From: a virus
IMG/VR virus record: IMGVR_UViG_3300042673_002246
Length of the DNA stretch: 64,000 bases
Strand: one strand, 5' to 3'
The notes under the pieces are model-generated. The model was not told the DNA's origin and made no database searches. It worked only from the letters and a program-made list of their open reading frames with translations. The position numbers and the translations under genes were made by a program. The first letter of the stretch is position 1, and every line of letters starts with the position of its first letter. Shown here one piece after another: positions 1,916 through 30,135 of the stretch.

Positions 1916-2058
1916 ATCCAGGAAAGTCTTCCACCACCGTCAAGTTCCTAGGAGCTCAGAAGAACATGCCTTCCAAAAATACTCAAAAAATTGGAAATTC
2001 TTTTCCTCGTCCGCTGCCGAACCCAATTTCTGGCGGGGCTCCAACGGTAAATGGGGGC

Positions 2059-2259
2059 ATGAAGGCAATTCTTGCGATTCTGAATCTTGTGTTTGTGTCG
2101 GTCATGCTCGGCTCGGTTCTGTATCTTGCTCTGCGTGTCGTGAGCGTGGACGGCAGTGGAGTGAGTATCACACTCTCTCTGTGGCGTTGCGTAGTGCTGG
2201 CGTTGTTCTACACGCTGTGGCGACTTGTCGTTACTGCACTCTTGCGTGTGCGTGACTAA
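2059..2259 (+). CDS. small membrane protein
   Basis: Two hydrophobic segments; start uncertain. Confidence 0.35.
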   Translation: MKAILAILNLVFVSVMLGSVLYLALRVVSVDGSGVSITLSLWRCVVLALFYTLWRLVVTALLRVRD

Positions 2260-2421
2260 CAACTTATCTAGTAAGTAGATACGAGCGAATCGCATGCACT
2301 TATCTAGTTCATGTGTATTGACTAGATAAGTACCAGTGGTGATACTGACTAGATAAGTACCGAGTGTGATACACGCAATACAAGTAAGCAGAATCATTAT
2401 CAGCACTTATCTAGTCCTTTC

Positions 2422-2643
2422 TCAAACAATTTCTAAGTCAAGTTCAGCGAGTGAACTCAACTGCGAAATGAAGTCAATACCTTCGTTCCACAGTAGATTC
2501 TCGTAGTCCTCACTTGCTTTCTTTGGTGTGTACGAGCCTGTCGTAATTTCGTCCAGTATTCCAGTCAAATAATGAATCGCATGTTTCAGGCTGTCTTGCA
2601 GTTCGCTCAATGCTTCCTGCACTGCTTCATCGGGTGTGTCCAC
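2422..2643 (-). CDS. hypothetical protein
   Basis: GTG start embedded in GAAAGG-ACTAGATAA-GTG. Confidence 0.6.
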   Translation of the reverse strand: MDTPDEAVQEALSELQDSLKHAIHYLTGILDEITTGSYTPKKASEDYENLLWNEGIDFISQLSSLAELDLEIV

Positions 2644-2853
2644 TTATCTAGTCCTTTCACTTATCTAGTAGGTATTGGGAGTGCCTAGCCCTCTCGTAGA
2701 GCGTTAGAAACGGAAAGTGTATCGCTTGGTATTCAGAGCGACACACGCTCGCCGAGAGAGCGTAGGCAAGTCGTACACGGTTCTCCCCAACTGTGTACGC
2801 CAAGAGTGGGGGCTGGCTCTCACCAACCCCCACCCGAGGACTTATCTAGTCAC

Positions 2854-4395
2854 TCAAGCGAGTGGGATTTTGCCCATGTGTCTGCGCCACACATCACGGA
2901 ACATCGCTGGATAGACACTCCGTGCCGTTCCACCGTTGCTCAATGACTTGAGTTGCTTTATCGCTTCCTCAACATGAGGAACAACGATGTAGTTGTTCTT
3001 GCGAGCGTAGGTGAGACACTGCATGGCGAGTGAATCGTGGAAATTGTCGTTCACGCCACACACTCCACCGTCTGTTACCCAAACAAGAGGAGTGCGAGAA
3101 TCTTTGCGATTCTTTACGCCCCACTGAATTGCTGGATAGTCCACGCCGTTGCCGTGTCCGTAGTCAATTCCTTCCACTGTCTCAACCATGCGTCCTTTGT
3201 CGCCAACGACCCATGCGTTATGACCACGACTACCTCTGTCGGAGTAGAGCAACACAGTAGCCCCAGGGGCATGCTCAATAATTTCGGCAATTTGTTCTGT
3301 CGTGAACGACATAGAACCACTTGCGTCAATAACGACCATGCCACCACTGCCACGCACCTTTCGGTCAAACACTCGCATAGCAGGGTCGGTCATCATGCGT
3401 TGCATACGGCGAGGTCTGCGACCTGCGTTCGTTGCAATACGCTTCTTACCGATACCACCTTTGCTGTAGCGAGGCATTGGCATACGCTCAAGACGAAGTT
3501 CGCCCCATTTCGGAGTGCCAGTGGTGATAGCAGACGGAGTTATGTCCTTGAGTGGATTTCCGTCCTTGTCGCCTTCACCTTCCTTGCCTTCACCTTCGTT
3601 GCTGTGGGCTTTGGACTTATCTAGTGAGTTACCTTCGCCCTCGCCACCAGCCTTGCTCTTGCTCGGCTTTGGTTGCTTCCGTTCCTTTGGTGGTGGGAAC
3701 GAAGCGAGCCTGTCCACCCACTCGGCGAGTTGTTCCGTGTAGGTGAATCCGAACGGCGCAAGTCCGTTGTGAACTGTCGTGTTAGCCAAGTGACCAGTGC
3801 GATGAGCCTTCTTCATCTCACGCACGGCTCGCTTGCCAATGTCTAGCAGTTGGTCGCCCCATGCACGATTCACTCTGCGAACGCCGTTGAGAAATTGCTT
3901 GTGTCCAGCACTTCCAGCAGTTCCAACGCACATAGCAACTGCCATTGCCCAGTCGTTAGTTTCTGCGCAACGCTGTCCACTTGCGAGTTCGCTTCCGTCA
4001 GCAAGGTGTTTCTTTACATCTATCCCTGCCTGTTGGCAGAGAAAGTTCACACGAAGTTCCTCAACGACAGTGAGTGCTGTAGCCGAAGCCATTTCACGCT
4101 TGACCCACTCTGCCATTTGTGCCGAATCAGGCGACACCTTTGCGTGCATGAGTTCGTGCGCACGAATCGCCCGAGCCTTGTCGTCATTGTCCGTTGGTGC
4201 GAACATGATTTTGTTAGTCACATCGGTCATTGGCTCGCCACGCACGGCTTGGCAGTGTTCTACTGTCCAAACTCCGTGTGCTTGGTCACGCCGACCGAGA
4301 AGGGTTGCCTCGGCTTTGGCGTTACCCCGAGTGGACTTATCTAGTCCACTCGGGAACGCCTTGCCAGCAACATGCTTGCCAGCAGGTTGAGACAT
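2854..4395 (-). CDS. VWA-domain protein with N-terminal HExxH metallopeptidase-like region (MoxR partner)
   Basis: AHELMH...EELRVN; MIDAS motif VIDASGSM and WVTDGG; translationally coupled to AAA+ gene. Confidence 0.8.
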   Translation of the reverse strand: MSQPAGKHVAGKAFPSGLDKSTRGNAKAEATLLGRRDQAHGVWTVEHCQAVRGEPMTDVTNKIMFAPTDNDDKARAIRAHELMHAKVSPDSAQMAEWVKREMASATALTVVEELRVNFLCQQAGIDVKKHLADGSELASGQRCAETNDWAMAVAMCVGTAGSAGHKQFLNGVRRVNRAWGDQLLDIGKRAVREMKKAHRTGHLANTTVHNGLAPFGFTYTEQLAEWVDRLASFPPPKERKQPKPSKSKAGGEGEGNSLDKSKAHSNEGEGKEGEGDKDGNPLKDITPSAITTGTPKWGELRLERMPMPRYSKGGIGKKRIATNAGRRPRRMQRMMTDPAMRVFDRKVRGSGGMVVIDASGSMSFTTEQIAEIIEHAPGATVLLYSDRGSRGHNAWVVGDKGRMVETVEGIDYGHGNGVDYPAIQWGVKNRKDSRTPLVWVTDGGVCGVNDNFHDSLAMQCLTYARKNNYIVVPHVEEAIKQLKSLSNGGTARSVYPAMFRDVWRRHMGKIPLA

Positions 4396-5123
4396 TATTT
4401 CACCCCGTCAATGGCGAGTGCGTCAAGAATCTGACGGGAACGGTCGCCGAAAGTGAGTGAGCATGCTCGTTCCATGCCAACGCTCGCACGGAGTTTGTCC
4501 AATGCGATGAACGCACGAAGTGAGATACGGTCGTCACCAGCGTCAGCCATGCGAACGGCGTACTTGCGCAAGTCAGGAGACAAGCGAAGCAGTGCGCTCG
4601 GGTGTGGCTCGTTGATACGAATACGAATCGGGAAACGGTCAGCGAGTGCTGTTGGCAACTCACCCATGTTCTCAATGTTCGTGGTCATAATTGCCGAGAA
4701 TCCACCGAGAGGACGAATCACTTCGCCAGTTTCAGGATGCTCAAACGAAGCAGATTCAGGTGAATCCAACATCGCCAAGAGTGTTGCGAACACATCGCCC
4801 GAAGCCTTATCTACTTCGTCCACGATGAGTCGTCCACCCTCTGTTCCGTTGCCCTTCCATGCCTTGAGAGCCGAACCGTCCAGCCACATGAAGCCACCTT
4901 TGCCGTTCGGCATGAAGCCACCTGTAACATCCATGTTCGTCATGTCCTCGGTGCAGACCAGTCGGAACGCACCAGCGTCCACTTTGCCGAGCGTCATGCC
5001 AGCGTAGGTCTTTCCGATACCTGATGGACCGTAGAGGATTACTCGGTCTATCCCTGCGTTGAGGCAGTCCTCAAGTGCTTTCCAGCACTCGGGGAGAGCC
5101 GTTGTTTCTGTCTGTGCAACCAT
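4395..5123 (-). CDS. MoxR/CbbQ-like AAA+ ATPase
   Basis: Walker A GPSGIGKT, Walker B LIVDEVD, sensor TTN, ALADRF arginine finger. Confidence 0.85.
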   Translation of the reverse strand: MVAQTETTALPECWKALEDCLNAGIDRVILYGPSGIGKTYAGMTLGKVDAGAFRLVCTEDMTNMDVTGGFMPNGKGGFMWLDGSALKAWKGNGTEGGRLIVDEVDKASGDVFATLLAMLDSPESASFEHPETGEVIRPLGGFSAIMTTNIENMGELPTALADRFPIRIRINEPHPSALLRLSPDLRKYAVRMADAGDDRISLRAFIALDKLRASVGMERACSLTFGDRSRQILDALAIDGVK

Positions 5124-5167
5124 TGGTATTTCTCCGTTTCTAGTAGTTGGGTTGGTTGTCGTGTACC

Positions 5168-5196
5168 ACTGTAGCGACCCGACAGCAGATTTATCT
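5168..5196 (-). promoter_or_regulatory. phage promoter AGATAAATCTGC-N11-TACAGT
   Basis: Member of 20-copy fixed-spacing class; upstream of AAA+ gene. Confidence 0.7.
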
Positions 5197-5311
5197 CGCC
5201 ACTTATCTAGTTAGTTCATACCACTTATCTAGTCAGTCCACTTATCTAGTTAGTTTCACTCGGACACTTATCTAGTTGGTTCCAGCCACTCGGTAATCGT
5301 TCGGCAACTTG

Positions 5312-5381
5312 CACCCGACCACCCCGAGCCTCGCCAACTTACACCCGACCACCCCGAGCCTCGCTTCCTTTGGAAGCCCCG
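5312..5381. repeat. boundary element: 2x CACCCGACCACCCCGAGCCTCGC then AGCCCCG
   Basis: 23-bp direct repeat at 5312 and 5342; AGCCCCG at 5375. Confidence 0.8.
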
Positions 5382-5430
5382 CGGACTTATCTAGTTAGAT
5401 ACAGAATTATTAGATTTTTGACTTATCTAG

Positions 5431-5910
5431 TTAGTCAGGTCGCTTGGCGATAGAGATTCGGTACAAGCCACGCTTGACCTTGATGAACTCTGGAGTTTCG
5501 TTCACGAACCCGAGTGTCGTCTGATACGAGAATCCACACTGCTCAACCAGTTGCTCGGTGGTGAACTCTTTACCGTCTTGGGTCTTTGCCCACTCCATAA
5601 ACGCACCCCATTTGTCCTTGCGTTTTTCAGGCTTCTGCATTGCTTCCCTCTGGACTTCCTTGCCACAGTATGTCTGAATAATGTGGTCGGCGATGTGGGG
5701 AAGCACGGAGTAAGAGTTCAGGTAAGAAAGCACATTTTTGCTTCCACCTTCCCTTTGCCATAATTGCAGTACATGTAGCCCACGAATCAGTTCGCTGGCA
5801 TTGGACGCTTGTTCTTTGGGAATCCGATACATCGTTCCGAATTCTTTTTCCATTTCCTTCCACATCTCTTTGTGGATTCCGTCAATGAATTCATCAGTCA
5901 GTTTTTTCAT
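5431..5910 (-). CDS. hypothetical protein with C-terminal winged-helix-like segment
   Basis: EFTTEQLVEQCGFSYQT...FIKVKRGLYRI; class promoter at 5956-5984. Confidence 0.6.
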   Translation of the reverse strand: MKKLTDEFIDGIHKEMWKEMEKEFGTMYRIPKEQASNASELIRGLHVLQLWQREGGSKNVLSYLNSYSVLPHIADHIIQTYCGKEVQREAMQKPEKRKDKWGAFMEWAKTQDGKEFTTEQLVEQCGFSYQTTLGFVNETPEFIKVKRGLYRISIAKRPD

Positions 5911-6274
5911 GGCTACCTTTCTAGCGGAACTTTATCCCGACTTGCCCGTCACTCCAGATTATCTTTTGGTAGGCAGACTTATCTGGTACGGCAACGCAAG
6001 AAAGTTATTTTTTTGACCACCTGACATCGAGGGCACTTCCTTTCCACCACCGTCAATTAGATTCACCACCCCCCGGGAATTAAATTTGTCAAATTTTTCA
6101 TTTTTTTGCACGTTCTGGCGGCCGGCTGCGGCGGCTCTGGATTTCTGGATTTTTTGGCAGCGAAACGCGGGGCTTACATGGTGAATCGGGTGCATAAAGA
6201 AAGAGGGTGGGTTTGACCCCACCCCCTGACTTATCTAGTTAGTTATCGGACTTATCTAGTAACTAGATAAGTGG

Positions 6275-6673
6275 CTACTGGTTCTTGAGAAAATCCTCAA
6301 TGTCGGGAATCGTCTCTTTGGCTATTTCCCGTGCTTCCGAATAAGCCATAGCGTCCATAATCAAGTCGTCCAGCATGTCTGCCAATGCACGGTCGTCCTC
6401 TGTGAGCAATGGTCCATCAGGACTTGGCACAAGAAACTTTAGCGCCTCATCCTTCTCCTTGTCGGGGAGTTGTGCAATTTCTTGCACCTGCGAGAAACTG
6501 AATCCCATTCGGTGACCATGATTCTGATAAACAAACAGTGCCTCGGTCAATGTCTGCAATGCGTCAAATCCGAATCTGATAAACGGATTCTCGGTGGGAA
6601 ACTCGGTGTTATCAGAGAACACTTTTTTCATTATTTCTTGCATTTCTTCATCATGGTTTTGTTGTTCGCTCAT
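6275..6673 (-). CDS. hypothetical protein
   Basis: ORF with GAGG SD. Confidence 0.65.
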   Translation of the reverse strand: MSEQQNHDEEMQEIMKKVFSDNTEFPTENPFIRFGFDALQTLTEALFVYQNHGHRMGFSFSQVQEIAQLPDKEKDEALKFLVPSPDGPLLTEDDRALADMLDDLIMDAMAYSEAREIAKETIPDIEDFLKNQ

Positions 6674-6822
6674 TTCACTTCCTCTTTCTGTTTGTCGTTG
6701 GTTATTAGCGAACGCAGGTCAAGCAACATGTCGGTCATTTCCGATGAAGCAACTAAGTCTCTGCCCGAGCAGTGACGAATCATTGTGTCCACCAGTTCGG
6801 TTGCTGTAAGTGTTTGGGTCAC
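6670..6822 (-). CDS. small hypothetical protein (50 aa, below ORF-track cutoff)
   Basis: GTG start inside ACTAGATAAGTG; MTQTLTATELVDTMIRHCSGRDLVASSEMTDMLLDLRSLITNDKQKEEVK; ATGA overlap with next gene. Confidence 0.65.
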   Translation of the reverse strand: MTQTLTATELVDTMIRHCSGRDLVASSEMTDMLLDLRSLITNDKQKEEVK

Positions 6823-6826
6823 TTAT

Positions 6827-7531
6827 CTAGTTCCCTTCTTTGTCGTTGTCGGCTTCGGTGAGCAAGGTGTGAAACGCCTTTGCCTTTATTGCCATTTTCA
6901 GGTATGAAATCGTCTGAAGCATGGCATTGGTGAAACGAGCCTCAGCCATTTCGCTGTTCTCATCTGTCAGGTGAACAATGTCAGTGTCCACATCATCAAA
7001 CATCGGTACACCTTGGTCGTCATAGGTGTAGGTGCTTGCGCTCATGTAAATCTTGTCCTGTTCCCAGTCCACGCCACTTACTACAAGACCCTCACGAACA
7101 TCGGTGAAAGGGTTGTTTTGGAACTCATCTTTCAGCGATTCTCTTTCACTGTCACGGTCGGCTGGAGTCGTCAGGTCTGTGAAGCGACGCATGTAACCCT
7201 CAACAGCAACAAAGATGAAGTTCACTGGTGCTGTAGGCAAGTGACCAACAGCGTCAATGTAAGCGTCGTATGGGTCGCCTTTGTGAATCAGTGGAAGCAT
7301 GGCAACATCGTATTGGCGTTCCAAGCCCAACTGCTTTGTGTATTGACTTGCTGATTCAGCCAATTCATCATCTGTATCATCAGACTGGTGAATACGACCA
7401 ATGATGAGCATTGGTGGGGTGTCGCTCATCGCAACCTCTTTGCACATTTCTTTTTTTGCATACTTGTTTCGGCGCATTACATCGCCGAGAATCTTTAGTA
7501 TGTCGTTTGAGATTACTTGCTGTTCGCTCAT
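6827..7531 (-). CDS. hypothetical protein
   Basis: AAGGAG SD; class promoter at 7562-7590. Confidence 0.7.
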   Translation of the reverse strand: MSEQQVISNDILKILGDVMRRNKYAKKEMCKEVAMSDTPPMLIIGRIHQSDDTDDELAESASQYTKQLGLERQYDVAMLPLIHKGDPYDAYIDAVGHLPTAPVNFIFVAVEGYMRRFTDLTTPADRDSERESLKDEFQNNPFTDVREGLVVSGVDWEQDKIYMSASTYTYDDQGVPMFDDVDTDIVHLTDENSEMAEARFTNAMLQTISYLKMAIKAKAFHTLLTEADNDKEGN

Positions 7532-7561
7532 GGCGTTTCTCCTTTGGTGGTAAGTACCAAC

Positions 7562-7590
7562 ACTGTATCTATTAGTAAGCAGACTTATCT
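7562..7590 (-). promoter_or_regulatory. phage promoter AGATAAGTCTGC-N11-TACAGT
   Basis: Fixed-spacing class member. Confidence 0.7.
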
Positions 7591-7638
7591 AGTGAGTATG
7601 GGTGGGGTGTCCACTCCCCACCCATTTCACATCAGGCA

Positions 7639-7863
7639 TTATTTTGCAATAATGTCTTGGGCGTTCACTTTCATCGCTTCGCACAACAATAGAAATGTCG
7701 TCATGCTTGGCGAGAAATGTCCGTTCTCAATGCGATTCACCGTTTTACGGTCAATGCCAGCCTTATTCGCCAGCGTTTCTTGTGACCACTCACGCTCAAG
7801 TCTTTCGTTCTTGAGTCGCTCTGCGATTCGCATTGTCTTTTTCTCAATGGCTGTAAGTGCCAT
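7639..7863 (-). CDS. XRE/Cro-C1 family HTH transcriptional regulator
   Basis: LKNERLEREWSQETLANKAGIDRKTVNRIENGHFSPS. Confidence 0.85.
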   Translation of the reverse strand: MALTAIEKKTMRIAERLKNERLEREWSQETLANKAGIDRKTVNRIENGHFSPSMTTFLLLCEAMKVNAQDIIAK

Positions 7864-7897
7864 GTCTTTCTCCTTTGTTTCTTGGTTGATTTTGGGT

Positions 7898-8665
7898 TTA
7901 GGACTTATCTAGTAAGTAATCGTCATACTGACTGAACGATAGTTTCTCCTTTCGCCTCTGATTAGAACGAATCCACGACACGATGAGTTGCATCGCCTTG
8001 TCGCACGAATCAACCATTTCATCGTCACGGTTTGCTCGCCACTCACTCTGTGCTTCCCAGTATTCGTCCATTTGTTCATCGGTATCTTGGGGCATGCCCT
8101 CTATCTCCGAATCCATTTCGGTTACACCTTCGCCCTCAACAATGAGTTCGCCATTGTGGATTACAACCCAACCAGCAAAGAACTCGGCTTCTTCCGTGAA
8201 CACGACACCGAATACAAGTTTCGGGAACTGCTTTGAGATACGAGCGATAAGACCGTTACACGGCGACCATGCTGACTGGTAATACATTGAGACAGAACCC
8301 TTGTTGTAGTCGTCATCAGATACGCCAACATCACCTGCGCCCCACTTGCTTCCCCATACGGCGTTGGCATAGTCGTACCAGTCCTTGTAGCCGTACTTAT
8401 CTAGGTTGTCTTGCATTTGCTTTTTGTGTTCAGCCTGTTTGTCCTCGGGAACTGAACCCGAAACCGTGTTCATCAACGCCTCGGGAATCGGGTCAAGGTG
8501 GTTGAGTGAATCAACTTCTACTTCTTTTTCACCAGTGGCTACCCATTTGCCGTCTTGGATTTCTCCAGTCTTTTGCAATTCCTTTATCTTGAGTGATTTC
8601 AGGAATCGCTTGAGTTCAGGTTTCGGACCTGACACCTTCATTGTGTTACTGCACCAGTTTGGCAT
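7898..8665 (-). CDS. DUF1281 / YubB ferredoxin-like family protein
   Basis: MPNWCSN start; DWYD...WGSKWGA...SAWSP motifs; class promoter at 8698-8726. Confidence 0.7.
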   Translation of the reverse strand: MPNWCSNTMKVSGPKPELKRFLKSLKIKELQKTGEIQDGKWVATGEKEVEVDSLNHLDPIPEALMNTVSGSVPEDKQAEHKKQMQDNLDKYGYKDWYDYANAVWGSKWGAGDVGVSDDDYNKGSVSMYYQSAWSPCNGLIARISKQFPKLVFGVVFTEEAEFFAGWVVIHNGELIVEGEGVTEMDSEIEGMPQDTDEQMDEYWEAQSEWRANRDDEMVDSCDKAMQLIVSWIRSNQRRKEKLSFSQYDDYLLDKS

Positions 8666-8943
8666 GCTCGCCCTTTCGTCTAGTAGTGGTACGACCCACT
8701 CTAGCCCCACACCAGCAGATTTATCAACCTGACTTATCTAGTCAGCATGTTCTTCCACCACCGTCAATGTCTTGATGTGTTCTCAACCCGACCCGACTTT
8801 CACCCGACCCACCCGTGAGCCGACCCAACTTCTTGCCGACCACCCCGAACCAGCCCCACCCCATCACTTACCGTGTAAGCCCCGCGTCCCACTGTTTAGC
8901 CGGGGCTCAAAGGGTCGAGCTGGTTTAATTTGGTTGGACTTAT

Positions 8944-9273
8944 CTAGTCAGTAATGATTTCGTCTGCGTAAACGAGTTGTGTTTCGCTGACACGCCAGCC
9001 GTTCTGATGGTCCGTCCATGCGTACTTGATAAGTGCCGTCCACTTATCTAGGTAGTCATAAATCTCATCATCGGGAATCCCATAGTCGTCAAAATACGAA
9101 GTGTCGTTCGGGTCTGGCGAGAAAGAGAAATAGACAAATGAGCGACCCTCTGGAAACTCCACTCTGCACTTGCTGCCGATGAGAATCAGACCACGAGCCT
9201 TTATTGCGAGCATGGTCAGAAAGAGCCGAATCGTAACCCATAGGGGAACGAAGAACTTATCTAGTAGGTTCAT
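8944..9273 (-). CDS. hypothetical protein
   Basis: ORF in coupled operon. Confidence 0.55.
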   Translation of the reverse strand: MNLLDKFFVPLWVTIRLFLTMLAIKARGLILIGSKCRVEFPEGRSFVYFSFSPDPNDTSYFDDYGIPDDEIYDYLDKWTALIKYAWTDHQNGWRVSETQLVYADEIITD

Positions 9274-9499
9274 ACGCCATCTCGTTTACGTCTTTGCCGA
9301 GAAGTTGGTCTGTAGTCAGCCGAATTATTGAGCGCACAATGTCGTCACTTGTTATGCCCCACGAATCAAGAGCCCACGCCAATAAAGTTCCATTTGCTAA
9401 ATCACCACAAATTGCTTCTATTGCTTGAGCCCGTGTCGTGGCAAGGAAGTAGTAGTTCTCCCACAAAATCTTGTCTAAATCTTCAGGCGTCAGAACCAT
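9257..9499 (-). CDS. hypothetical protein
   Basis: AAGGAG SD, overlaps neighbours. Confidence 0.6.
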   Translation of the reverse strand: MVLTPEDLDKILWENYYFLATTRAQAIEAICGDLANGTLLAWALDSWGITSDDIVRSIIRLTTDQLLGKDVNEMAYEPTR

Positions 9500-9765: not shown

Positions 9766-9778
9766 TTATCTAGTCCTT

Positions 9779-11390: not shown

Positions 11391-11485
11391 TGTTCTACCC
11401 CCTTCGGGTCTAGGTATTTATTACGATTTCATCGTAATAGTGGGTGGGCAGACTTATCTAGTAAGTCCACCCACCCACTGAACGA

Positions 11486-21719: not shown

Positions 21720-21725
21720 TTACGC

Positions 21726-22415: not shown

Positions 22416-22421
22416 AATCTA

Positions 22422-22619: not shown

Positions 22620-22873
22620 AACTTAATCCCGACCACCCCGTGCCTTGCTATCAAATTTTAAAAATCCGTACAGAACTAGCAAGAGCAGCACGGAAACAAT
22701 AACGCTGTTGGTATCCATGGACCCATGATAGCGATTTTCTCGCTTTTCATCAAGCTCACTGATAAACCTGCTTTCCTCGACTTAGGATTCACATCGCAGA
22801 CCGGCAGGGCTCACACTCTCCTTTCGGTATCCAACACACGTGAGCCTTGTCGGTCCTCATTTTTATCTGTACA

Positions 22874-24811
22874 ATGTCCATCGTGAAGTTATTTTTAGAC
22901 CACAACGAAATAATTCTTGATTTTCCATTTGATGCCGGCCAGGTTGAGGAAATAAAACGCATATCAGGTGCAAGGTGGGACAAGATTGGCCGTGTGTGGC
23001 GCTTACCAATTACGGCTATCAATGAAGGTCGTGAGTTTGCATTGCGTCATAACTTTGAGGTCACTGTCGATGCTCTAAAGTTCTCCGTACCAATACCTGC
23101 TATAGGGCGCACCGGTGCTCGTGTGTATGTCGATAATGGTATGGCGGTTATCCGTGTGCCTTATGAGCGAGTAATCATTAAGGCTATTAAACAAATACCT
23201 GGCATTACATGGGATAGCAAAATGCTTGCATGGAAAGCCCCCCTTACATCGATTACAAATATCATTACGTGGGCCAAATCTTTCGGCGTTACCGTAGACA
23301 ATGAGCTAATGGACATGGCTGTACAAGTAGAGACAGAGATGACTGAATTGATACAGGCATCACGCTCGGTAGACGCAGAGATACAGATACCTGAACTACA
23401 AGGCGCACTGCTGCCGTATCAGAAAGCTGGAGTTTCGTACGCTGCAAGAGCCCGTAGGACATTTATCGCTGACGACATGGGTCTCGGAAAGACACTGCAG
23501 GCGATGTCCACGCTCGAATACGTTCACGACAGTTACCCAGCAGTCGTTGTATGTCCACCAAGTCTCGTGCTTAACTGGGCGAGTGAATATTCGAAGTGGT
23601 ATCCACATCGCAAGGTGGCCACTGTGACGAACCGTAAGTCATTCCCTGACGCAGGCACATATGACGTTGTGGTAGTTGGATACAGCAATATCGCTACATG
23701 GGAGAAGCAACTATCCAAACATCGCTCGTACGTATGGGATGAAAGCCACTATCTAAAAACGCCCACCTCGCAGAGAACGAAAGCAGCAGTCAAGATAGCT
23801 CGTAGCGCACCAAAAGAAGGTCTCGTATTGTGTCTCACGGGAACACCCGTAACGAACAGGCCGAACGAATACGCAAGCCAACTTGATGTACTGGGTCGCC
23901 TCAAGGACTTTGGTGGGTTGTGGGGTTTCTATCGACGCTATTGCGCTGCATACCAAGACAGTTTTGGTCAGTGGAATATCAGTGGACACTCACACCTAGA
24001 CGAACTCAATGACAGGCTTCGTGGCACTTGCTACATACGCCGTACGAAAGACCAAGTGTTATCGGAGTTGCCACCCGTAGTCCATAGCAAATTGCTGGTA
24101 GAGGGCTCATCACAAGCGATGAAAGAATACAAGAAAGCAGAGAACGACATTATTCTCTACATCGCAGAGCGAGCCCGACAACTCGCCATAGAGCAGGGCA
24201 AGTCACAGCACGGCGCTGCCATATCAGCAATGATTAGGGCAGAAGCGAACGAACATTTAGTCCGTCTGTCGGTGCTTCGCCGTCTTGCTGCGAAAGCAAA
24301 GATGGAAGTCGCTCATGAGTGGATTACTGAACGTATAGAGGCCGGCCGTAAGGTCGTTGTCGCTGCACACCATCGAGACATCGTTGACGAAATCGCCCGT
24401 AAGTATGGAGACCTACGTATTCAGGGTGGAATGAAGGTTGAGGAAGTAGAGGAGAATAAACGCAAGTTTCAGCAGTTAACCGTAGATAAAGCACCCGTAA
24501 TCGTGTTATCTATCCAGGCTGCCAAAACTGGACACACACTCACTGCGTCAGAGGAGTGTTTATTCATAGAACTTCCGTGGACACCAGCAGACGTAGACCA
24601 GACATACTCACGCCTACATCGCATCGGACAACAAGGAAGCGTGACGGCAACTTATCTATTAACTAAAGACACCATTGATGAGGAGATTTATCAACTCATC
24701 GAGCGAAAGCGTTCGGTGGTAAATGCGTCAGTAGAAGGTGGGGAGTTCGCTAACGAGGATAGTGCCGTGCAACTTATTCTGAATTTACTCGGTAAAGCAG
24801 AACAGAACTAA
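22874..24811 (+). CDS. SNF2-family helicase with tandem HARP-like N-terminal domains
   Basis: DDMGLGKT, WDESH, LTGTP, SRLHRIGQ; two FPFD/VPYE...IPG..WD....W repeats. Confidence 0.85.
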   Translation: MSIVKLFLDHNEIILDFPFDAGQVEEIKRISGARWDKIGRVWRLPITAINEGREFALRHNFEVTVDALKFSVPIPAIGRTGARVYVDNGMAVIRVPYERVIIKAIKQIPGITWDSKMLAWKAPLTSITNIITWAKSFGVTVDNELMDMAVQVETEMTELIQASRSVDAEIQIPELQGALLPYQKAGVSYAARARRTFIADDMGLGKTLQAMSTLEYVHDSYPAVVVCPPSLVLNWASEYSKWYPHRKVATVTNRKSFPDAGTYDVVVVGYSNIATWEKQLSKHRSYVWDESHYLKTPTSQRTKAAVKIARSAPKEGLVLCLTGTPVTNRPNEYASQLDVLGRLKDFGGLWGFYRRYCAAYQDSFGQWNISGHSHLDELNDRLRGTCYIRRTKDQVLSELPPVVHSKLLVEGSSQAMKEYKKAENDIILYIAERARQLAIEQGKSQHGAAISAMIRAEANEHLVRLSVLRRLAAKAKMEVAHEWITERIEAGRKVVVAAHHRDIVDEIARKYGDLRIQGGMKVEEVEENKRKFQQLTVDKAPVIVLSIQAAKTGHTLTASEECLFIELPWTPADVDQTYSRLHRIGQQGSVTATYLLTKDTIDEEIYQLIERKRSVVNASVEGGEFANEDSAVQLILNLLGKAEQN

Positions 24812-25275
24812 TCGGTTTCGGAACTTGTTTCCGACTTACCCGTGGCACCCTGGGTGCGACCGTAAAATATTTCCTCTGCAATTAGTTTGGAATATTTCTT
24901 ACGCAAGCGCCATATTTTCTTGTTCATTTCAGTCATCTCTTGGCTCATTCGAGCTTTGATTATTGCTTTGTCGTCATACACGCCGTGCCCATTAAATAGT
25001 GCGTCATGGATATCTGCGTCCTCAATGATGATGTCTGATATCCAACCGGCACGTTTGTCTATTGCCATCATTAATTCACACAAACCCTCTACGCCGAATT
25101 CATCGTGAATTCGATTTGCGATTATTGAGCAGAAGTGTGAACGATACATATTTCTCGCTTTCTGCGAGTTAGACATGAACTCGGATATGAACAGCGCAAG
25201 TTCTTCCTTTGTCGGCATTTCTTCGCCATCATCACCGGCAAATTCGTAAAAATCGTCTGCGCCGTCGTTATTCAT
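24808..25275 (-). CDS. hypothetical protein
   Basis: ORF with GAGG SD. Confidence 0.6.
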   Translation of the reverse strand: MNNDGADDFYEFAGDDGEEMPTKEELALFISEFMSNSQKARNMYRSHFCSIIANRIHDEFGVEGLCELMMAIDKRAGWISDIIIEDADIHDALFNGHGVYDDKAIIKARMSQEMTEMNKKIWRLRKKYSKLIAEEIFYGRTQGATGKSETSSETD

Positions 25276-25323
25276 CTTGCCTCACTTTTCTATGGGCTTG
25301 ACTAATAATACCCGTACTAGAAG

Positions 25324-26349
25324 TCAGACATTTGTTAATAGATAAGTTTGAGTTTTTAGTTTTGTTCTCGTCACCCATGAGTTGTTGTCCATGGACGCGA
25401 GCGCGCGTTCATCGCGAGAAGCATCTCGGTAGTGGTCGAGATATTCGCCGATGGCGTTATAGATTGACCAGCCGTTGTACCCGTAGTTCTTTGCGTTGTT
25501 TTCGTTTTCATAAATAGCGCGAACTAGCGACAACACGTCATCACGGTTCTTTCTCTGACGCTCTGTGCTATTTGGCTCTATCGGAAATGCTGTATTTAGG
25601 ACTTTGTCAAGAACTTGTGTGCGTGCTGGAACTTTCACTGCCAGTAGTCGTTCGGCAGTAGCAGCAAAGTTGTTTGCCCATTCATTAGATATCGCAAGAA
25701 CTTCATTCGCTTGCTCTATCGCTCTGTCTGCATTACGAGTGTGACGAGCAGTAAATACCCGTCGAGCGCTTTCTATGCCAAGCGTTACGGTATTTTGACA
25801 TACGGCACGAATAGAAGTGTTGGCGAATGTAATTGCCGTCTTTCCATCGTGTCCATTGCGAACAAGTAAGTAGCGCGCTATTTGGTCATTCACGCCAGCA
25901 GGGTCTACGACTATCGCGCCCAAGTCAAGTGAAGCAAAGAAACCTTTTCCATCGTGTAGAACACCGGCGGTATCTACAACTGCGTCTCCTTCGGAAGCAC
26001 CCACGATGCTTAGCGCATAATCCAAACACTCTTTATTCTGCTGAACTACATAACGCGTTCCAACGGTGGCCAAACCGGTGAATGTGCCGTCAATGTTGAC
26101 CCGTACGGTTGCACGACTGTCCGGCACGAGAATAGTTGTGCCATCAGGGTTCCGTAGTGGTTCGCCATTGTCATCGCAAATTGCCACCCGTGTTGTGACT
26201 ACATCGAAGTTCGCCTGTGAAGCTTCGAGCATTGCCTCTGCCGTTTGTAGCCCCTTCATTGGCGTTCCAAGCCTGTGCCACGGGATTTCTCTGTCGGCGT
26301 ATGCCATTCTCGCTGTGCCGTCTTTATTGATTTCTAGTCCGTGTGCCAT
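25324..26349 (-). CDS. DUF932 family phage/plasmid protein
   Basis: MAHGLE...PWHRLG...YLLVRNGHDG...IRAVCQNT...RHT. Confidence 0.85.
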   Translation of the reverse strand: MAHGLEINKDGTARMAYADREIPWHRLGTPMKGLQTAEAMLEASQANFDVVTTRVAICDDNGEPLRNPDGTTILVPDSRATVRVNIDGTFTGLATVGTRYVVQQNKECLDYALSIVGASEGDAVVDTAGVLHDGKGFFASLDLGAIVVDPAGVNDQIARYLLVRNGHDGKTAITFANTSIRAVCQNTVTLGIESARRVFTARHTRNADRAIEQANEVLAISNEWANNFAATAERLLAVKVPARTQVLDKVLNTAFPIEPNSTERQRKNRDDVLSLVRAIYENENNAKNYGYNGWSIYNAIGEYLDHYRDASRDERALASMDNNSWVTRTKLKTQTYLLTNV

Positions 26350-26489
26350 TTCGTGTCTTTCCTTCTCTCTCTTTTAGATAAATCTAACCGAGTATTGCCT
26401 GGTTCATTGTACACCGGGGCTCCAGAGGCAGGGGCAGTGGTTGGGGTTCGGTCTGTGGCGAGGGCGCACGGGTGGGTCGGCAGAAAGTC

Positions 26490-26518
26490 GGATAATTCTG
26501 CTCGTCAATGGTTATGAT
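26490..26518 (+). promoter_or_regulatory. phage promoter GGATAATTCTGC-N11-TATGAT
   Basis: Variant class member. Confidence 0.6.
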
Positions 26519-26554
26519 TTATTCAGGAACTAACGCTCGTGAAAGGGGCAACTA

Positions 26555-26833
26555 ATGAAGTTACTAGATAAGTGCGAAAACTGGTGTCAGGAACATTATC
26601 TCGGAACGATGAAGGCTCTGCTCGGCATTATCTCTGCCGTGCCGACTATCGGACTGTTCGGAGTGGTTCAGGCGTACTACAACAGCAACATCGGCGACCT
26701 GCTGACCTGTTTGTTCATCGTGGTAGGTGGAACGGTGATTACCACCCTATTCGCTCTGACCGTGTACAACGAACATCAAGACGAACGCTACGGCTCTATT
26801 CGCCGTCACCCAGTCACGAAGCGAGTGCGCTAA
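26555..26833 (+). CDS. small membrane protein
   Basis: Two TM segments; AAAGGGG SD. Confidence 0.6.
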   Translation: MKLLDKCENWCQEHYLGTMKALLGIISAVPTIGLFGVVQAYYNSNIGDLLTCLFIVVGGTVITTLFALTVYNEHQDERYGSIRRHPVTKRVR

Positions 26834-27534
26834 TGACTACGACAGCACTGGACACCCGTAGCGTGTTAGCAGAAATGCTAACAGAAAACACTGGAACGCA
26901 CATCTTGGACAGTGGTGGCGCATACGGCAGGAACTGGGAACGAAACAATGGCAAGACGCTTGCCGATTTTGAGAACGAACCGACTGCGTGGGCTGACGGT
27001 TATGGCGTAGTGCTTTCAGTTTTTCACTTTCTTGCGAACCGTGTGGAGTTTCTGCCGAGTATCCAAGCCGAGTTAGATGATTTGGCACGGTGTATGCCTG
27101 ATGAGGGCTGGTTGGCTATCGCCGAGACACTGGCTGAACGCTACGACCCTAAGCCTCGTACTTGGAACACTTACAACGGCGAGGACAGTCTTTCGCAAAC
27201 ACTACAAGGCGTATCGTTCACCCGTAATGACGGTGAGACTGTGAGCCTTATTCAGATACACGGGGGCTGTGATGTTCGTGGTGGATACACGAAGCCTCGT
27301 GCTTTCCGTGTGACGGTGGAAATGGCTGACTGTTTCCCATACGACCACAACTCTTATGAGTTGGAGTGTCCGACTGATAACGAACACTCTCTCTCGTATT
27401 TGGGTGAGTACATCGGTTGGCACGGGTCAAGCATTGACGCTGATGAGTATCCGACATACGACAGCGAGAAGCGAACAGCGAACTGTGTGAAGTGTGGTTC
27501 GCCATTCATCGTTCACGCCTCTGAACCGTACTAG
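26833..27534 (+). CDS. hypothetical protein
   Basis: Start at TAATG overlap; ENTGTHILDSGGAYGRNW, IHGGCDVRGGY. Confidence 0.7.
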   Translation: MTTTALDTRSVLAEMLTENTGTHILDSGGAYGRNWERNNGKTLADFENEPTAWADGYGVVLSVFHFLANRVEFLPSIQAELDDLARCMPDEGWLAIAETLAERYDPKPRTWNTYNGEDSLSQTLQGVSFTRNDGETVSLIQIHGGCDVRGGYTKPRAFRVTVEMADCFPYDHNSYELECPTDNEHSLSYLGEYIGWHGSSIDADEYPTYDSEKRTANCVKCGSPFIVHASEPY

Positions 27535-27767
27535 ATAAGTCTCAACGGTCACCCGTAGCCTCTGCGCTCTTATCCCCAACCCCCTTTCATCAAGGGCGTA
27601 GGGGTTACGGGGTTTCACTTATCTAGTGAGCATTACTCTGCTACGGCGAGACTATGACTTACTAGATAAGTGTTCATCACAAGTGAGGGCAAAGTGCGAA
27701 GCACTGCGCCAGCCGGGGCTCCGAGCGTTTGAGTGTGGTTTGTGTTGTAACTAGATAAGATGATGAG

Positions 27768-28100
27768 ATGAACGAGAACACCTATCGAACAGCAAAGACA
27801 ATTCTCATCGCTATCGCAATAACACTTGCGTCAGTATTCGCATTTGGGTATTTGGAAAGACAGCAAGCAAGAGACAGTGAGTTCTTTTGTGATGGCACAC
27901 CAGTCACTATCAAAGAAGGCGACACTCTCTATTGGATAGCCCGAACAAAGTGTGAAGGCAACACTATGGAAGTGGTGGACAGACTTGTCGCCCTGTACGG
28001 CACGACATTGACTATCGGTGACACCATCTATCTGCCGACACACAACTCCTGTGAGTTGCGTATGACAGACGGTGGTCAAGTAATGGAAGAGTGTGCGTGA
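27768..28100 (+). CDS. membrane-anchored LysM-domain protein (paralog of 13077-13376)
   Basis: TM helix; TIKEGDTLYWIA...LTIGDTIYLP. Confidence 0.75.
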   Translation: MNENTYRTAKTILIAIAITLASVFAFGYLERQQARDSEFFCDGTPVTIKEGDTLYWIARTKCEGNTMEVVDRLVALYGTTLTIGDTIYLPTHNSCELRMTDGGQVMEECA

Positions 28101-28109
28101 TGAACTTAT

Positions 28110-28313
28110 CTAGTTCAGTATCTGTCCAACACTGACAACGAAAACTTCTCCACAGTAAAGCACACGGGCGTACTGTTTATCTGTGTCGTGGTATGAGATG
28201 AACTCTGCTTCCACAGCACCCGTAGTCATTCGGCGTGCCTTGTCTGAAACGATGTGACCGAACGACACTGGTATCAACAGCGTCTGACCTACGGTAAGTC
28301 CTTTGGTAATCAC
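28110..28313 (-). CDS. hypothetical protein
   Basis: Coupled ORF. Confidence 0.5.
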   Translation of the reverse strand: MITKGLTVGQTLLIPVSFGHIVSDKARRMTTGAVEAEFISYHDTDKQYARVLYCGEVFVVSVGQILN

Positions 28314-28498
28314 TAGATGCCGTATGTTCCGAGTTGAGTGCGCTCTGCTTGGCGCAAGACTTCGTAGATTTCGGAAACATGCGCTTCCGTGTGTTCATCA
28401 TCAGCGAACAACCTGACTATCTGTAAGACACACTCCAAGCGAGCAACCTGCTGTGCCGTAAGTGTGATAGTGAGTTCTGCGTTTCGTGCTATTCCCAT
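28313..28498 (-). CDS. hypothetical protein
   Basis: SD; class promoter at 28520-28548. Confidence 0.55.
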   Translation of the reverse strand: MGIARNAELTITLTAQQVARLECVLQIVRLFADDEHTEAHVSEIYEVLRQAERTQLGTYGI

Positions 28499-28546
28499 TG
28501 TGTTCCCCTTTCGGTATTGACCTTAGGGTAGGGCGAGCAGACTTAT

Positions 28547-28954
28547 CTATTTACTATCTGTGACATCACGCCACTGACCATCAACGACCACCTGATAGTG
28601 CGCCCCCGACACTGGCACGAGTTCGCCATTAGCATTGCGTTCATACTTGCCGAAGTTCTCAGTGGAACGCCATGCCCACTCACAGCACGGTGTTTCACTA
28701 TCGCAGGGGTGTGTCCCCTTACCTATCGTCTCTGCCAATGCTGGGAACAGAGTAAGGAACTTCACTATGCAGTCGTGACACAGTATCCAACTACGGCTAC
28801 GGCGATTACTAAACAGTACATCTACCTCATCAGTGAAGCCACCATAGTAACCAAATAGGTCAAATGGTAAATCCCAACCGTTACTAGGTAGGTGCTTTTG
28901 TTCATCGCACTGGACATCGTAGTCACAACCTGAACAGCGAACATGGTTACTCAT
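28547..28954 (-). CDS. hypothetical Cys-rich protein
   Basis: Class promoter at 28964-28992, near-leaderless. Confidence 0.6.
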   Translation of the reverse strand: MSNHVRCSGCDYDVQCDEQKHLPSNGWDLPFDLFGYYGGFTDEVDVLFSNRRSRSWILCHDCIVKFLTLFPALAETIGKGTHPCDSETPCCEWAWRSTENFGKYERNANGELVPVSGAHYQVVVDGQWRDVTDSK

Positions 28955-29016
28955 AACATCTCAACGATAGTCGTATGCGAGCAGACTTATCTAGTACCCG
29001 TAGCACTTGGCGACTT

Positions 29017-29430
29017 CTATGACTGGCGTGTGTTGAGGCGAAGGTAGGCAGAGTAGGCGTAGTTGCGTTGGCGTTGGCGTTCGGCGTGTGCCCTCTCTGC
29101 GTCTGCTGGGGGCATACGGTCTATCTCATCATCAGTGGGTGCGAAGCCTATCTCCCTCTCTGCTTCTAGCATCAGTGACACAAGGCTAAGCGTGTGGGTG
29201 TCTGCGTACTCACCCGTAGCGATGTGGCAACCTTGTTCATCTAAGTCAAGTGCCAACAGTTCGCTTGCTACCTTTGAGATGAATACACCTGTGAGTTTCA
29301 TCTGCGACAGGCGTTGGTGTGTGGTCAGGTGTTCGTTCGCTGTCCTCTTAGACCGAAGCAACTGTGTGTACATACTGTTGCTTGGAACGAAAGCGACAAA
29401 CTCTGATGGGGTTGGCTCTTGTGTTGTCAT
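29017..29430 (-). CDS. hypothetical protein
   Basis: ORF. Confidence 0.5.
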   Translation of the reverse strand: MTTQEPTPSEFVAFVPSNSMYTQLLRSKRTANEHLTTHQRLSQMKLTGVFISKVASELLALDLDEQGCHIATGEYADTHTLSLVSLMLEAEREIGFAPTDDEIDRMPPADAERAHAERQRQRNYAYSAYLRLNTRQS

Positions 29431-30135
29431 CTCATCTCTCTCTTGTGTTTGTGTGTGTCGTGTGTATGCGATGTGTATGAGCGAGGCTCTGCGTGGCTAA
29501 GCCCACACCAGACCCGAAACCCGACAGACCCGACAGTGCTGTTGGTTTTGTTGGCGTGTCGTGTTGCGTGTTGGATTACATCGGGTGTGTGGTCTCTCTC
29601 TCGGCGTGTGTCTTACTGAAACACTTGGATAAATCGTCTTGCTGTTTTTTGGGGTGTCGTATTCGGGTCGTGACTTATCTAGTGAGTTGTGTCGTTTTGT
29701 AATCAGCCAGAAACCATCGGCACACACTGCGAGAGACTGCTGTGTGTCCTCTGCGTGTGTGGACTTGTTGCCGACTACCCCGAGTACCGACACAAATTGC
29801 GAAAAATTGTTCGCAGTGTCGCCTCGCAGCACCTGTCTCTTGTAGCCCCGCGAAACTTTCTCGGTTGAGGCAGGGTGGGTGGGGGAGCAAAATCGCAAAA
29901 AATTCATCCCAGGTTTTTCACTTAAATTTATCCAATGCATACAGCTCGGCCGCCAGTTTGCGGACTTTCTTCCAGTGTCTTGATTGTCTCCCATTTGCCC
30001 CCAGACAGCATGGGATGAGCCCTGTGAAGGACAAATGCATGAATGCCCTGTCTTCGTATGCTTCAATCACGTCCGGTGAATCCGAGTACAAAGCGTCCTG
30101 TGTTTCTTTCACGGTTCAAGCGTATACTGAAATTC

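What the first reader, a model, noticed from the sequence alone, without database searches (positions are those of the whole stretch)
2034..29850. AGCCCCG/CGGGGCT boundary elements partition the region and mark compositional switches
Seen: AGCCCCG...CGGGGCT pairs at 5375/6168, 8878/8901, 10475/10498, 12073/12097, 12973/13005, 14432/14456, 15364/15388, 17095/17142, 17499/17531, 18814/18847 and 20191/26415. Collapsed forms occur at 13494 and 27711, and lone outer half-sites at 2034 and 29844. AGCCCCG is usually preceded 20-75 bp earlier by CCGACCACCCCG-like boxes, and CGGGGCT is often followed by the mirror CGGGGT(G/A)GTCGG (15423, 17567, 18891). The half-sites at 2034, 20191, 26415 and 29844 lie where motif-rich, palindrome-free DNA changes to motif-poor ordinary DNA. 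Inference: motif-rich blocks are discrete units with bipartite inverted ends, such as recombination or cassette-exchange sites, loop anchors or borders of a protected domain. No recombinase is visible in the window. Exceptions: AGCCCCG at 898 inside a gene, and the 17142-17499 block.
Basis: partly seen in the sequence, partly recalled or inferred. Interest (0 to 1): 0.85.

Follow-up and report, generated by a model that had tools for sequence, protein, structure and literature searches.

The report
Repeated control modules between phage accessory genes
The AGCCCCG/CGGGGCT pairs are the conserved core of a control module repeated between the small accessory genes of an uncultured ~160-kb phage. 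They resemble the promoter/stem-loop cassettes known from T4-like phages and are not sites of a dedicated recombination system.

Summary
The heptamer occurs 27 times in the window against 4.3 expected. All 27 copies lie in the first ~30 kb of a 134-kb phage record, and none in the other 100 kb. Nine tight inverted pairs and eight lone half-sites sit in intergenic DNA.

The functional unit is an oriented ~15-bp half-site. A 20-bp G-rich box follows it 26-40 nt further out, in steps of one helical turn. Copies of an 11-mer come next, then a host-type promoter 26-54 nt before the start codon.

The stem is identical in all 33 hairpins from relatives at 99% to ~70% identity, with no compensatory change. 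Hairpins occupy orthologous positions in syntenic genomes, and lone half-sites are conserved too.

No integrase, resolvase, T7-type polymerase or sigma factor was found.

The few gene gains and losses do join at repeated motifs: three at the 11-mer or promoter, two at heptamer sites. This fits homologous exchange as in T4-type PeSL cassettes.

My reading is sequence-specific control and insulator modules, with recombination as a by-product. This scan has already reported PeSL-like arrays in other phages.

Unexplained: metagenomic contig ends cluster at these sites.

The parts
2034..29850 (.). Motif-rich domain of small accessory (probably early) genes. It holds every heptamer copy but one (898), nearly all the G-boxes and every exact 11-mer.
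   Evidence: Change-points at ~2100 and ~29800. Families found: DUF1281_C, DUF3846, DUF6011, DUF4314, DUF932, SNF2, AAA_5.
8878..8907 (.). Inverted heptamer pair, 16-nt loop
   Evidence: RNA fold -19.8 kcal/mol. The record of relative G004 ends 18 nt to its right.
10475..10504 (.). Inverted heptamer pair, 16-nt loop
12073..12103 (.). Inverted heptamer pair, 17-nt loop
   Evidence: The orthologue in L311 keeps only one half.
12973..13011 (.). Inverted heptamer pair, 25-nt loop
   Evidence: Orthologue in G001 at 718.
14432..14462 (.). Inverted heptamer pair, 17-nt loop, with a degenerate right-facing G-box
15364..15394 (.). Inverted heptamer pair, 17-nt loop, with G-boxes on both sides. It is the strongest hairpin.
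   Evidence: Fold -36.6 kcal/mol, z -4.7. Contig G006 ends 15 nt to its left.
17095..17148 (.). Inverted heptamer pair with a 40-nt loop holding a nested inverted repeat and three tandem G-boxes to its left. It is a recurrent contig breakpoint.
   Evidence: Contig ends map at 17070, 17078, 17134 and 17180.
17499..17537 (.). Inverted heptamer pair, 25-nt loop, with a right-facing G-box. In G002 the left half is replaced by different sequence.
18814..18853 (.). Inverted heptamer pair, 26-nt loop, lying between divergent genes with a G-box on each side
2034..2040 (+). Lone half-site facing right, at the left compositional border
   Evidence: Conserved in G002 and G005.
5375..5381 (-). Lone half-site facing left, followed by two tandem G-boxes
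   Evidence: Contig L311 ends here.
6168..6174 (+). Lone half-site facing right
13494..13500 (-). Lone half-site facing left. Its G001 orthologue is a full pair.
20191..20197 (-). Lone half-site at the left edge of a 6.2-kb motif-poor island
   Evidence: Contig G002 ends 48 nt to its right.
26415..26421 (+). Lone half-site facing right, followed by a G-box, a promoter and the gene at 26572
27714..27720 (+). Lone half-site facing right
29844..29850 (-). Lone half-site facing left, at the right compositional border, with a G-box 61 nt further out
   Evidence: Contig G003 ends 26 nt to its right.
5307..29782 (-). 15 left-facing G-boxes (12-nt G-rich block, N4, AAGT). Starts: 5307, 5337, 8796, 8828, 12014, 12913, 13435, 14383, 15309, 17007, 17037, 17067, 18767, 22621, 29763.
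   Evidence: Tandem copies are 28-32 nt apart.
15423..26488 (+). 4 right-facing G-boxes. Starts: 15423, 17566, 18891, 26469.
2262..29683 (.). 69 exact copies of the 11-mer ACTAGATAAGT. It reads this way on the strand of the neighbouring genes and often overlaps stop codons or the upstream half of promoters.
   Evidence: Only 1 substitution in 671 nt against a 93%-identical relative.
5168..28991 (.). 18 promoter-like sites (GATAA-R-TCTGC, 11 nt, TAnnnT), each 26-54 nt before a start codon
   Evidence: which tests a pattern first proposed in note e1-5739395
17149..17498 (-). One-gene block (ORF 17197-17421) lying between two hairpins. G001 lacks it and has a single hairpin there.

Best explanation
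The pairs are the centre of a control module that recurs between genes across a block of small accessory, probably early, genes. The block is ~28 kb here and ~31 kb in complete relatives. It belongs to an uncultured tailed phage of ~160 kb.

The working unit is not the hairpin. It is an oriented half-site of ~15 bp, made of the heptamer plus a weaker outward flank (consensus CGGGGCT-YMCANGGT).

Reading outward from a half-site, the order is:
- a 20-bp G-rich box, 26-40 nt out, in steps of one helical turn;
- one to four copies of the 11-mer;
- a host-type promoter;
- the gene.
Two half-sites back to back make the 'pair', which can also fold as a 7-9 bp stem-loop.

I infer that a sequence-specific protein, not yet identified, binds the half-sites and G-boxes on DNA. 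I also infer that the module separates and controls neighbouring transcription units, acting as an insulator plus an upstream control region.

Because the modules are repeated, they also offer short stretches of homology at which genes are occasionally gained or lost. This is the role described for PeSL cassettes in T4-type phages.

Shown here: the anatomy, the confinement to one domain, the conservation, the phasing and the indel junctions. Inferred: protein binding and the effect on transcription.
For: 1. All three motif classes are confined to one domain of the genome.
2. The order of motifs is fixed and follows gene direction on both strands.
3. All 33 hairpins from lineages at 99% to ~70% identity carry the identical stem, with 0 compensatory variants. 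The sequence is what is constrained, not just the pairing.
4. Against a 93%-identical relative the stems show 5 substitutions in 168 nt. All five lie in one half-site where the sequence is replaced. The comparable rates are 9.7% in other intergenic DNA and 7.5% in loops.
5. Lone half-sites keep the same flank consensus. They are conserved in relatives at 75-93% identity.
6. A distant relative, L236 (SNF2 58% identical), keeps 9 unpaired copies in one orientation inside a different module.
7. The distance from a half-site to the first G-box is bimodal, 26-30 and 35-40 nt. The best period is 10.5-11 nt: R 0.70 for 26 sites, and R 0.68 with permutation P 0.002 for the 15 sites of this window.
8. 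Tandem G-boxes lie 28-32 nt apart.
9. RNA folds are no better on the gene strand than on the opposite strand.
10. Three pairs (15364, 17499, 18814) carry outward-facing G-boxes on both sides. At 18814 the flanking genes are divergent, so an RNA terminator has little to do there.
11. Hairpins occupy orthologous intergenic positions in a syntenic relative with 32-79% protein identity.
12. Indel junctions fall on repeated motifs, as reported for PeSLs (PMC2839356, PMC4122927).
Against: - No binding protein has been identified. Pfam finds no DNA-binding domain among about 40 ORFs of the domain.
- There are no expression data.
- In five of the nine pairs the second half-site faces the 3' end of the upstream gene and has no G-box. 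A pure 'one site per outward unit' model does not explain this, but a hairpin model does.
- The region has no excess of canonical intrinsic terminators, so something must end transcripts, and the stem-loops are the obvious candidates.
- The phasing statistic rests on 15 to 26 partly orthologous sites.
- The spacing between the two halves of a pair (16, 17, 25, 26 and 40 nt) does not suit a rigid dimer.
Confidence: 0.5

Rival explanations
1. The pair acts as a nucleic-acid stem-loop in the transcript. It would be a factor-dependent or U-tract-less terminator or attenuator, or a 3'/5'-end protector, sitting between one gene and the next promoter. That would make it the exact counterpart of the PeSL stem-loop.
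For: - Each pair lies after a stop codon and before the next promoter cluster.
- The folds are stable, at -16 to -37 kcal/mol, with z from -1.4 to -4.7.
- The flanks extend the stem by 2 to 6 imperfect pairs.
- The region has no excess of canonical terminators.
- PeSL stem-loops are GGGG...CCCC rich, fairly conserved, and were shown to terminate transcription (PMC2839356).
- This model explains the 'orphan' second half-sites.
Against: - No U-tract follows the stem on either strand.
- All 33 stems are invariant, with no compensatory change.
- There is no sense-strand advantage in pairing or energy.
- Eight lone half-sites with no partner are conserved.
- L236 carries only unpaired copies, and these sit next to ordinary T-run terminators.
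- The helical phasing with the G-box has no meaning for an RNA element.
Confidence: 0.28
2. The half-sites mark places where the DNA itself is processed: site-specific nicks, genome termini or packaging cuts, or replication or priming signals. In that case the hairpin at 17095/17142 would be a physical discontinuity in virion DNA.
For: - 9 of 18 contig ends inside the domain lie within 50 nt of a half-site, where 7.4% would be expected (P 1.8e-6).
- Four or five ends from at least three samples sit at the single hairpin 17095/17142.
- The record of G004 runs from 17134 round to 8925. It therefore lacks exactly the 8.2 kb between two hairpins.
Against: - Several contigs (G000, G002, G003 and L276) read straight through the 17095/17142 site, and five (G000, G002, G003, G006 and L311) read through 8925.
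- The ends scatter over about 110 nt and do not share one nucleotide.
- A direct terminal repeat does not by itself branch an assembly graph.
- Loss of coverage at strong GC hairpins, or strain heterogeneity, would give the same picture.
- No reads were available.
Confidence: 0.1
3. The inverted pairs are target sites of a dedicated recombination or cassette-exchange system, integron-like or inverton-like, and they define mobile gene units.
For: - The W-only one-gene block at 17149-17498 lies between two hairpins, and a G001-only cassette starts with a half-site.
- Contig ends cluster at the sites.
Against: - Neither PF00589 nor PF00239 is found in this record or in a relative rated 100% complete, while the control genomes are positive.
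- Hairpin positions are orthologous in syntenic genomes down to 32-79% protein identity.
- Lineages at 81-83% identity are collinear.
- The three recent indels join at the 11-mer or promoter repeats.
- No loop is inverted among relatives.
- The loops of 16-40 nt are too short for recombinase-mediated inversion (established knowledge).
Confidence: 0.04

Closest known systems
PeSLs (promoter-early stem-loop cassettes) of T4-type phages RB49/phi1, PST and nt-1 (Arbiol et al. 2010, PMC2839356; Comeau et al. 2014, PMC4122927)
   Same: - Small composite motifs repeated between non-essential small ORFs.
- Confined to plastic regions of a large phage genome.
- GC stem built on a run of C and a run of G, and fairly conserved in sequence.
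- A promoter lies beside it.
- Indels between close relatives are flanked by the repeats.
- The PeSL authors themselves proposed that the stem might be a protein target.
   Different: - The phage lineage is different. Its HK97-type capsid protein is 49% identical to those of Brevibacterium and Gordonia phages.
- The module is 200-350 bp, against ~80-100 bp for a PeSL.
- It has four separate motif classes.
- It has no sigma-70 consensus promoter and no AT-rich UP region.
- The stem is strictly invariant.
- Functional lone half-sites exist.
- The half-site is helically phased with a G-rich box.
- Gene order is largely conserved, not hyperplastic.
Stoperators of cluster A mycobacteriophages (L5 gp71 type; PMC9283540)
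   Same: This comparison concerns the companion 11-mer, not the heptamer. Both are short asymmetric sites present in dozens of copies. Both are oriented with transcription, lie in short intergenic gaps or over stop codons, and have one class that overlaps the promoter.
   Different: No repressor has been identified, and there is no sign of lysogeny because no integrase is found. The sites are confined to one domain, whereas stoperators are spread over the genome.
RNase III processing hairpins between T7/T3 early genes
   Same: Both are hairpins placed between consecutive early genes.
   Different: T7 sites are ~20-bp two-tier RNA helices whose stems vary. Here the stem is 7-9 bp and invariant, it shows no strand preference, and unpaired copies are conserved.
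Integron attC sites
   Same: Both are imperfect inverted repeats with variable centres that separate single promoterless-looking small genes in one orientation.
   Different: There is no IntI and no R/L box consensus. Each gene has its own promoter, and the positions are orthologous between diverged genomes.

Membership tests
PeSL cassettes | Repeated intergenic motif concentrated in a region of small non-essential ORFs of a large phage | tested here: met
   All copies lie in one 28-kb domain of small ORFs that mostly have no family assignment.
PeSL cassettes | A strong sigma-70 consensus early promoter with an AT-rich upstream region, directly beside the stem-loop | tested here: not met
   The sigma-70 scan gives 14 sites against 15.2 expected. 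The promoter-like sites have a TAnnnT -10 element and a non-canonical upstream element, and they lie about 110-190 nt from the hairpin.
PeSL cassettes | Stable GC-rich stem-loop that terminates transcription | tested here: inconclusive
   The stem-loops are stable. There is no U-tract and no strand asymmetry. Termination itself cannot be tested with these tools.
PeSL cassettes | Insertions, deletions and replacements between close relatives are bounded by the cassettes | tested here: met
   All five events found are bounded by repeated motifs of the module. Three are at the 11-mer or promoter and two are at heptamer sites.
PeSL cassettes | Mini-circles formed by recombination between neighbouring cassettes | not testable with these tools
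   This needs reads or inverse PCR.
Integron (attC array) | Integron integrase (tyrosine recombinase) adjacent to or within the element | tested here: not met
   PF00589 is absent from G000 and from the relative G004 rated 100% complete, while 14 of 14 control genomes are positive.
Integron (attC array) | Cassettes are promoterless and their order and content change freely between relatives | tested here: not met
   Most genes have their own promoter-like site. Gene order is conserved down to ~70% nucleotide identity.
Intrinsic (Rho-independent) terminators | GC stem with a 3-8 nt loop, followed by a U-tract | tested here: not met
   Loops are 16-40 nt and no T-run follows on either strand. 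The terminator scan shows no enrichment.
Known RNA families (Rfam 15) | Match to a curated covariance model | tested here: not met
   Apart from a tRNA, window 1-32000 gives only two weak hits (E 0.011 and 0.84), both far below their gathering scores. Neither lies at a heptamer module: one is the tRNA locus read on the opposite strand, the other is at 1951-1999.

The most novel reading that the evidence does not exclude
The half-sites are places where the phage chromosome is physically or structurally special. One possibility is strand-specific nicks or ends made by a site-specific enzyme. Another is anchoring points of a phage-encoded protein scaffold that organises the accessory domain as a separate unit. 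This would explain four things together: convergent half-sites sit at the two sharpest compositional borders of the window; the stem sequence is invariant; the sites are phased with arrays of G-boxes; and independent metagenome assemblies break at these sites, above all at 17095/17142.
Probability: 0.12. Interest if true: 0.75.

Novelty: new variant of a known kind. Interest (0 to 1): 0.45.

Why it matters
Large phages keep their fast-evolving accessory and anti-defence genes in special regions, and how those regions are expressed and reshuffled is known in detail only for T4-type phages.

This phage belongs to an unrelated, uncultured lineage. Its virion carries giant polyvalent proteins (ArdC, helicase, exonuclease). 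It has built an analogous but more elaborate system of four motif classes, kept letter for letter across lineages that differ by 30% in sequence.

The invariance and the helical phasing point to at least one unknown sequence-specific regulator. They also supply its binding site ready-made. The module could serve as a portable, insulated expression unit, and the motifs are a simple marker for finding the accessory domain in related metagenomic phages.

Tried and rejected
- Integron or attC reading. Rejected: no integrase, each gene has its own promoter, and positions are orthologous.
- Serine recombinase. None found.
- Phage RNA polymerase or sigma factor that might own the motifs. PF00940 and PF04542 are absent. 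The 2458-aa virion protein matches nothing in Pfam, PHROGs or PDB sequences, and by eye it shows only an HExxH motif and a ParB-like DGHHR motif. The protein-atlas call failed on protein length.
- Sigma-54 reading of the G-box, which has the same geometry as TGGCACG-N4-TTGC. Rejected by inspection, because several copies have TAG in place of the essential GG.
- Strand-specific RNA structure, tested as G-U versus A-C pairs and as energies on each strand. No asymmetry.
- Loop inversion (flip-flop) among close relatives. None.
- Long terminal repeat 8926-17133 as the cause of the G004 record ends. Unsupported, because only one assembly breaks at 8925 and a terminal repeat does not branch a graph.
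- Rfam, including the idea of a trans-acting ribozyme taken from note e1-3293241. Nothing found.
- Literature search for the motif strings. Only unrelated primer hits.
- Megablast of the region against cultured phages. No match.
The 161-kb metagenome contig behind L260 and L276 is not held, so its ends could not be read.

Full report
**What the window is.** The window is bases 459-64458 of a 133,891-bp IMG/VR phage record rated 89% complete.
- It encodes an HK97-type major capsid protein about 49% identical to those of Brevibacterium and Gordonia phages.
- It also encodes a portal, a ribonucleotide reductase, a primase and eight tRNAs.
- It has giant virion-associated polyvalent proteins. One fuses a prohead protease to ArdC, a zincin peptidase and a UvrD helicase.
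- No cultured phage matches the region at the DNA level.

**Check of the observation.** The heptamer occurs 27 times against 4.27 expected, and no shuffle reaches that number. All coordinates are right except 27711, which is 27714. In the whole record all 27 copies lie in the first ~30 kb and none in the remaining 100 kb. The same confinement holds for 69 exact copies of an 11-mer and, apart from background hits of the short core, for the C/G-rich boxes. There are nine tight inverted pairs (loops 16-40 nt), eight lone half-sites and one copy inside an ORF. The two sharpest 3-mer change-points of the 64-kb window, at ~2100 and ~29800, coincide with the outermost half-sites at 2034 and 29844. 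The half-site at 26415 has a weak peak and 20191 has none.

**Anatomy.** Genes from 2.4 to 17.4 kb run on the minus strand. On the gene strand the order of elements is:
- stop codon;
- 11-mer (one to four copies);
- heptamer pair;
- G-rich box (12-nt G-rich block, N4, AAGT; one to three copies, 28-32 nt apart);
- 11-mer again;
- a promoter-like site (GATAA-R-TCTGC, 11 nt, TAnnnT) 26-54 nt before the start codon.

Where the flanking units diverge (clearly at 18814, and by the motifs also at 15364 and 17499), a G-box faces outward on each side. Aligning all half-sites in the outward direction extends the conserved site to about 15 nt. That flank is present on paired and lone copies alike.

**Sequence, not just structure.** I found relatives by motif scans and by the SNF2 protein. 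They range from ~99% identity (G003, G004, G006) through 93% (G002) and 81-83% (L311, L312) to ~70-77% (G001, G005 and ocean-survey fragments).
- All 33 hairpins in these lineages have the identical 7-bp stem. None shows a compensatory change.
- Loops are conserved only among close relatives.
- Against G002, the stems carry 5 substitutions in 168 nt, and all five lie in one half-site where the sequence is replaced. Loops differ by 7.5% and other intergenic DNA by 9.7%. The 11-mer has 1 change in 671 nt.
- Lone half-sites are conserved at 75-93% identity.
- In a more distant relative, L236 (SNF2 58% identical), the 11-mer and G-box are absent. Nine unpaired heptamers persist, all in one orientation, each inside a different conserved module that follows an ordinary T-run terminator.

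**DNA level or RNA level.** The stem-loops are stable as RNA, at -16 to -37 kcal/mol. They fold no better on the gene strand than on the opposite strand, and G-U pairs show no strand bias. No U-tract follows on either strand, and Rfam has nothing. By contrast, the distance from a half-site to the first G-box is bimodal at 26-30 and 35-40 nt, with outliers at 18, 47, 49 and 61. The best period is 10.5-11 nt: R 0.70 for 26 sites, and R 0.68 with permutation P 0.002 for the 15 sites of this window alone. Tandem G-boxes lie about three helical turns apart. Phasing of this kind is what proteins bound to one face of the duplex would produce. The distance from the G-box to the downstream promoter varies from about 2 to 111 nt by my reading of the map, so the half-site and G-box form a unit of their own.

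**Direction.** Inside the minus-gene block, 42 copies of the 11-mer read with the genes and 9 read the other way. All 9 lie 94-314 nt to the right of a right-facing half-site. Every right-facing G-box is followed by 11-mers in the same orientation. Each half-site therefore heads an outward-directed unit, either long with genes or short with none recognised.

- Against a dedicated exchange system:
  - no tyrosine or serine recombinase in this record or in a relative rated 100% complete;
  - hairpins at orthologous positions in a syntenic genome whose proteins are 32-79% identical;
  - collinearity at 81-83% identity;
  - no inverted loops.
- For occasional exchange at the repeats:
  - an 863-bp insertion in G004 is flanked by 21-bp direct repeats centred on the 11-mer;
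  - an extra gene in G002 is flanked by a duplicated ~80-nt stretch of 11-mer, promoter and ribosome site;
  - a ~290-bp indel in G003 starts right after an 11-mer;
  - the one-gene block 17149-17498 lies between two hairpins where G001 has one;
  - a G001-only cassette begins with a half-site, G-box and promoter.

This is the behaviour described for PeSL cassettes of T4-type phages, whose GGGG...CCCC stem-loops terminate transcription. The authors suspected those stems of being protein targets (PMC2839356, PMC4122927).

**An unexplained extra.** Of 18 contig ends from independent assemblies that fall inside the domain, 9 lie within 50 nt of a half-site, where 7.4% would be expected (P 1.8e-6). 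Four or five of them are at the single hairpin 17095/17142. The G004 record runs from inside that hairpin round to 18 nt past the hairpin at 8878/8901, so it lacks the 8.2 kb between them. The arms are too short to tangle an assembly graph. Strain-level rearrangement, nicks or ends in virion DNA, and loss of coverage at strong hairpins all remain possible. Reads were not obtainable.

**Verdict.** The elements are best read as sequence-specific control or insulator modules of an accessory-gene domain. They are a more elaborate variant of PeSL-type regulatory cassettes in an unrelated phage lineage, with recombination as a by-product, not a purpose. A stem-loop terminator role is the main rival. 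Whether the site works as DNA or as RNA, and what binds it, remains to be shown. This scan has already reported PeSL-like arrays in other phages, so the class is not new. The invariant half-site, the phasing and the contig-end clustering are the parts worth a follow-up.

Noticed in passing
window 2262-29683: The 11-mer with its usual upstream bases (TAACTAGATAA) carries stop codons in all three frames, and many genes end inside it. It is the most conserved element of the region, with 1 change in 671 nt at 93% overall identity. It looks like an oriented stop or operator site, similar to a stoperator.
   Followed up: partly
window 8-20, 760-772, 1929-1941, 6042-6054, 8753-8765, 10349-10361, 12856-12868: A further exact 13-mer (GACGGTGGTGGAA) occurs 7 times, always on the gene strand upstream of genes (9 hits allowing 2 mismatches, against 1.3 expected). 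Its core also sits in the conserved module of the distant relative L236. It may be another promoter-associated element, including in the motif-poor DNA to the left of the domain.
   Followed up: partly
window 17095-17148 and 8878-8925: The G004 record, rated 100% complete at 153.9 kb, starts and ends at these two hairpins and lacks the 8.2 kb between them. A 161-kb metagenome contig (Ga0209358_10000022) contains that segment.
   Followed up: partly
window 15443-15690; L005 1720-1870 and 3806-4030: Short outward units of 150-300 nt lie downstream of right-facing G-boxes and end in 11-mers. They hold no conserved ORF and might be small RNAs or abortive divergent transcripts.
   Followed up: partly
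G000:C1:65789-73165 (L227), beyond the window: A 2458-aa virion-region protein has no Pfam, PHROG or PDB-sequence match. By eye it shows an HExxH motif and a ParB-like DGHHR motif, which suggests another polyvalent ejected protein.
   Followed up: partly
window 20198-26414: A motif-poor island lies inside the domain, between two outward-facing lone half-sites. It holds a 308-aa ORF, an SNF2 helicase and a DUF932 protein.
   Followed up: no
window 4395-5123 and 2854-4395: A MoxR-like AAA_5 ATPase is followed by a 513-aa partner with no Pfam family. The pair sits at the left of the domain, and two 11-mers lie inside the coding sequence (3615, 4335).
   Followed up: no
window 31260-33403 and 51094-53101: Eight tRNA genes lie in two clusters just outside the motif domain.
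   Followed up: no
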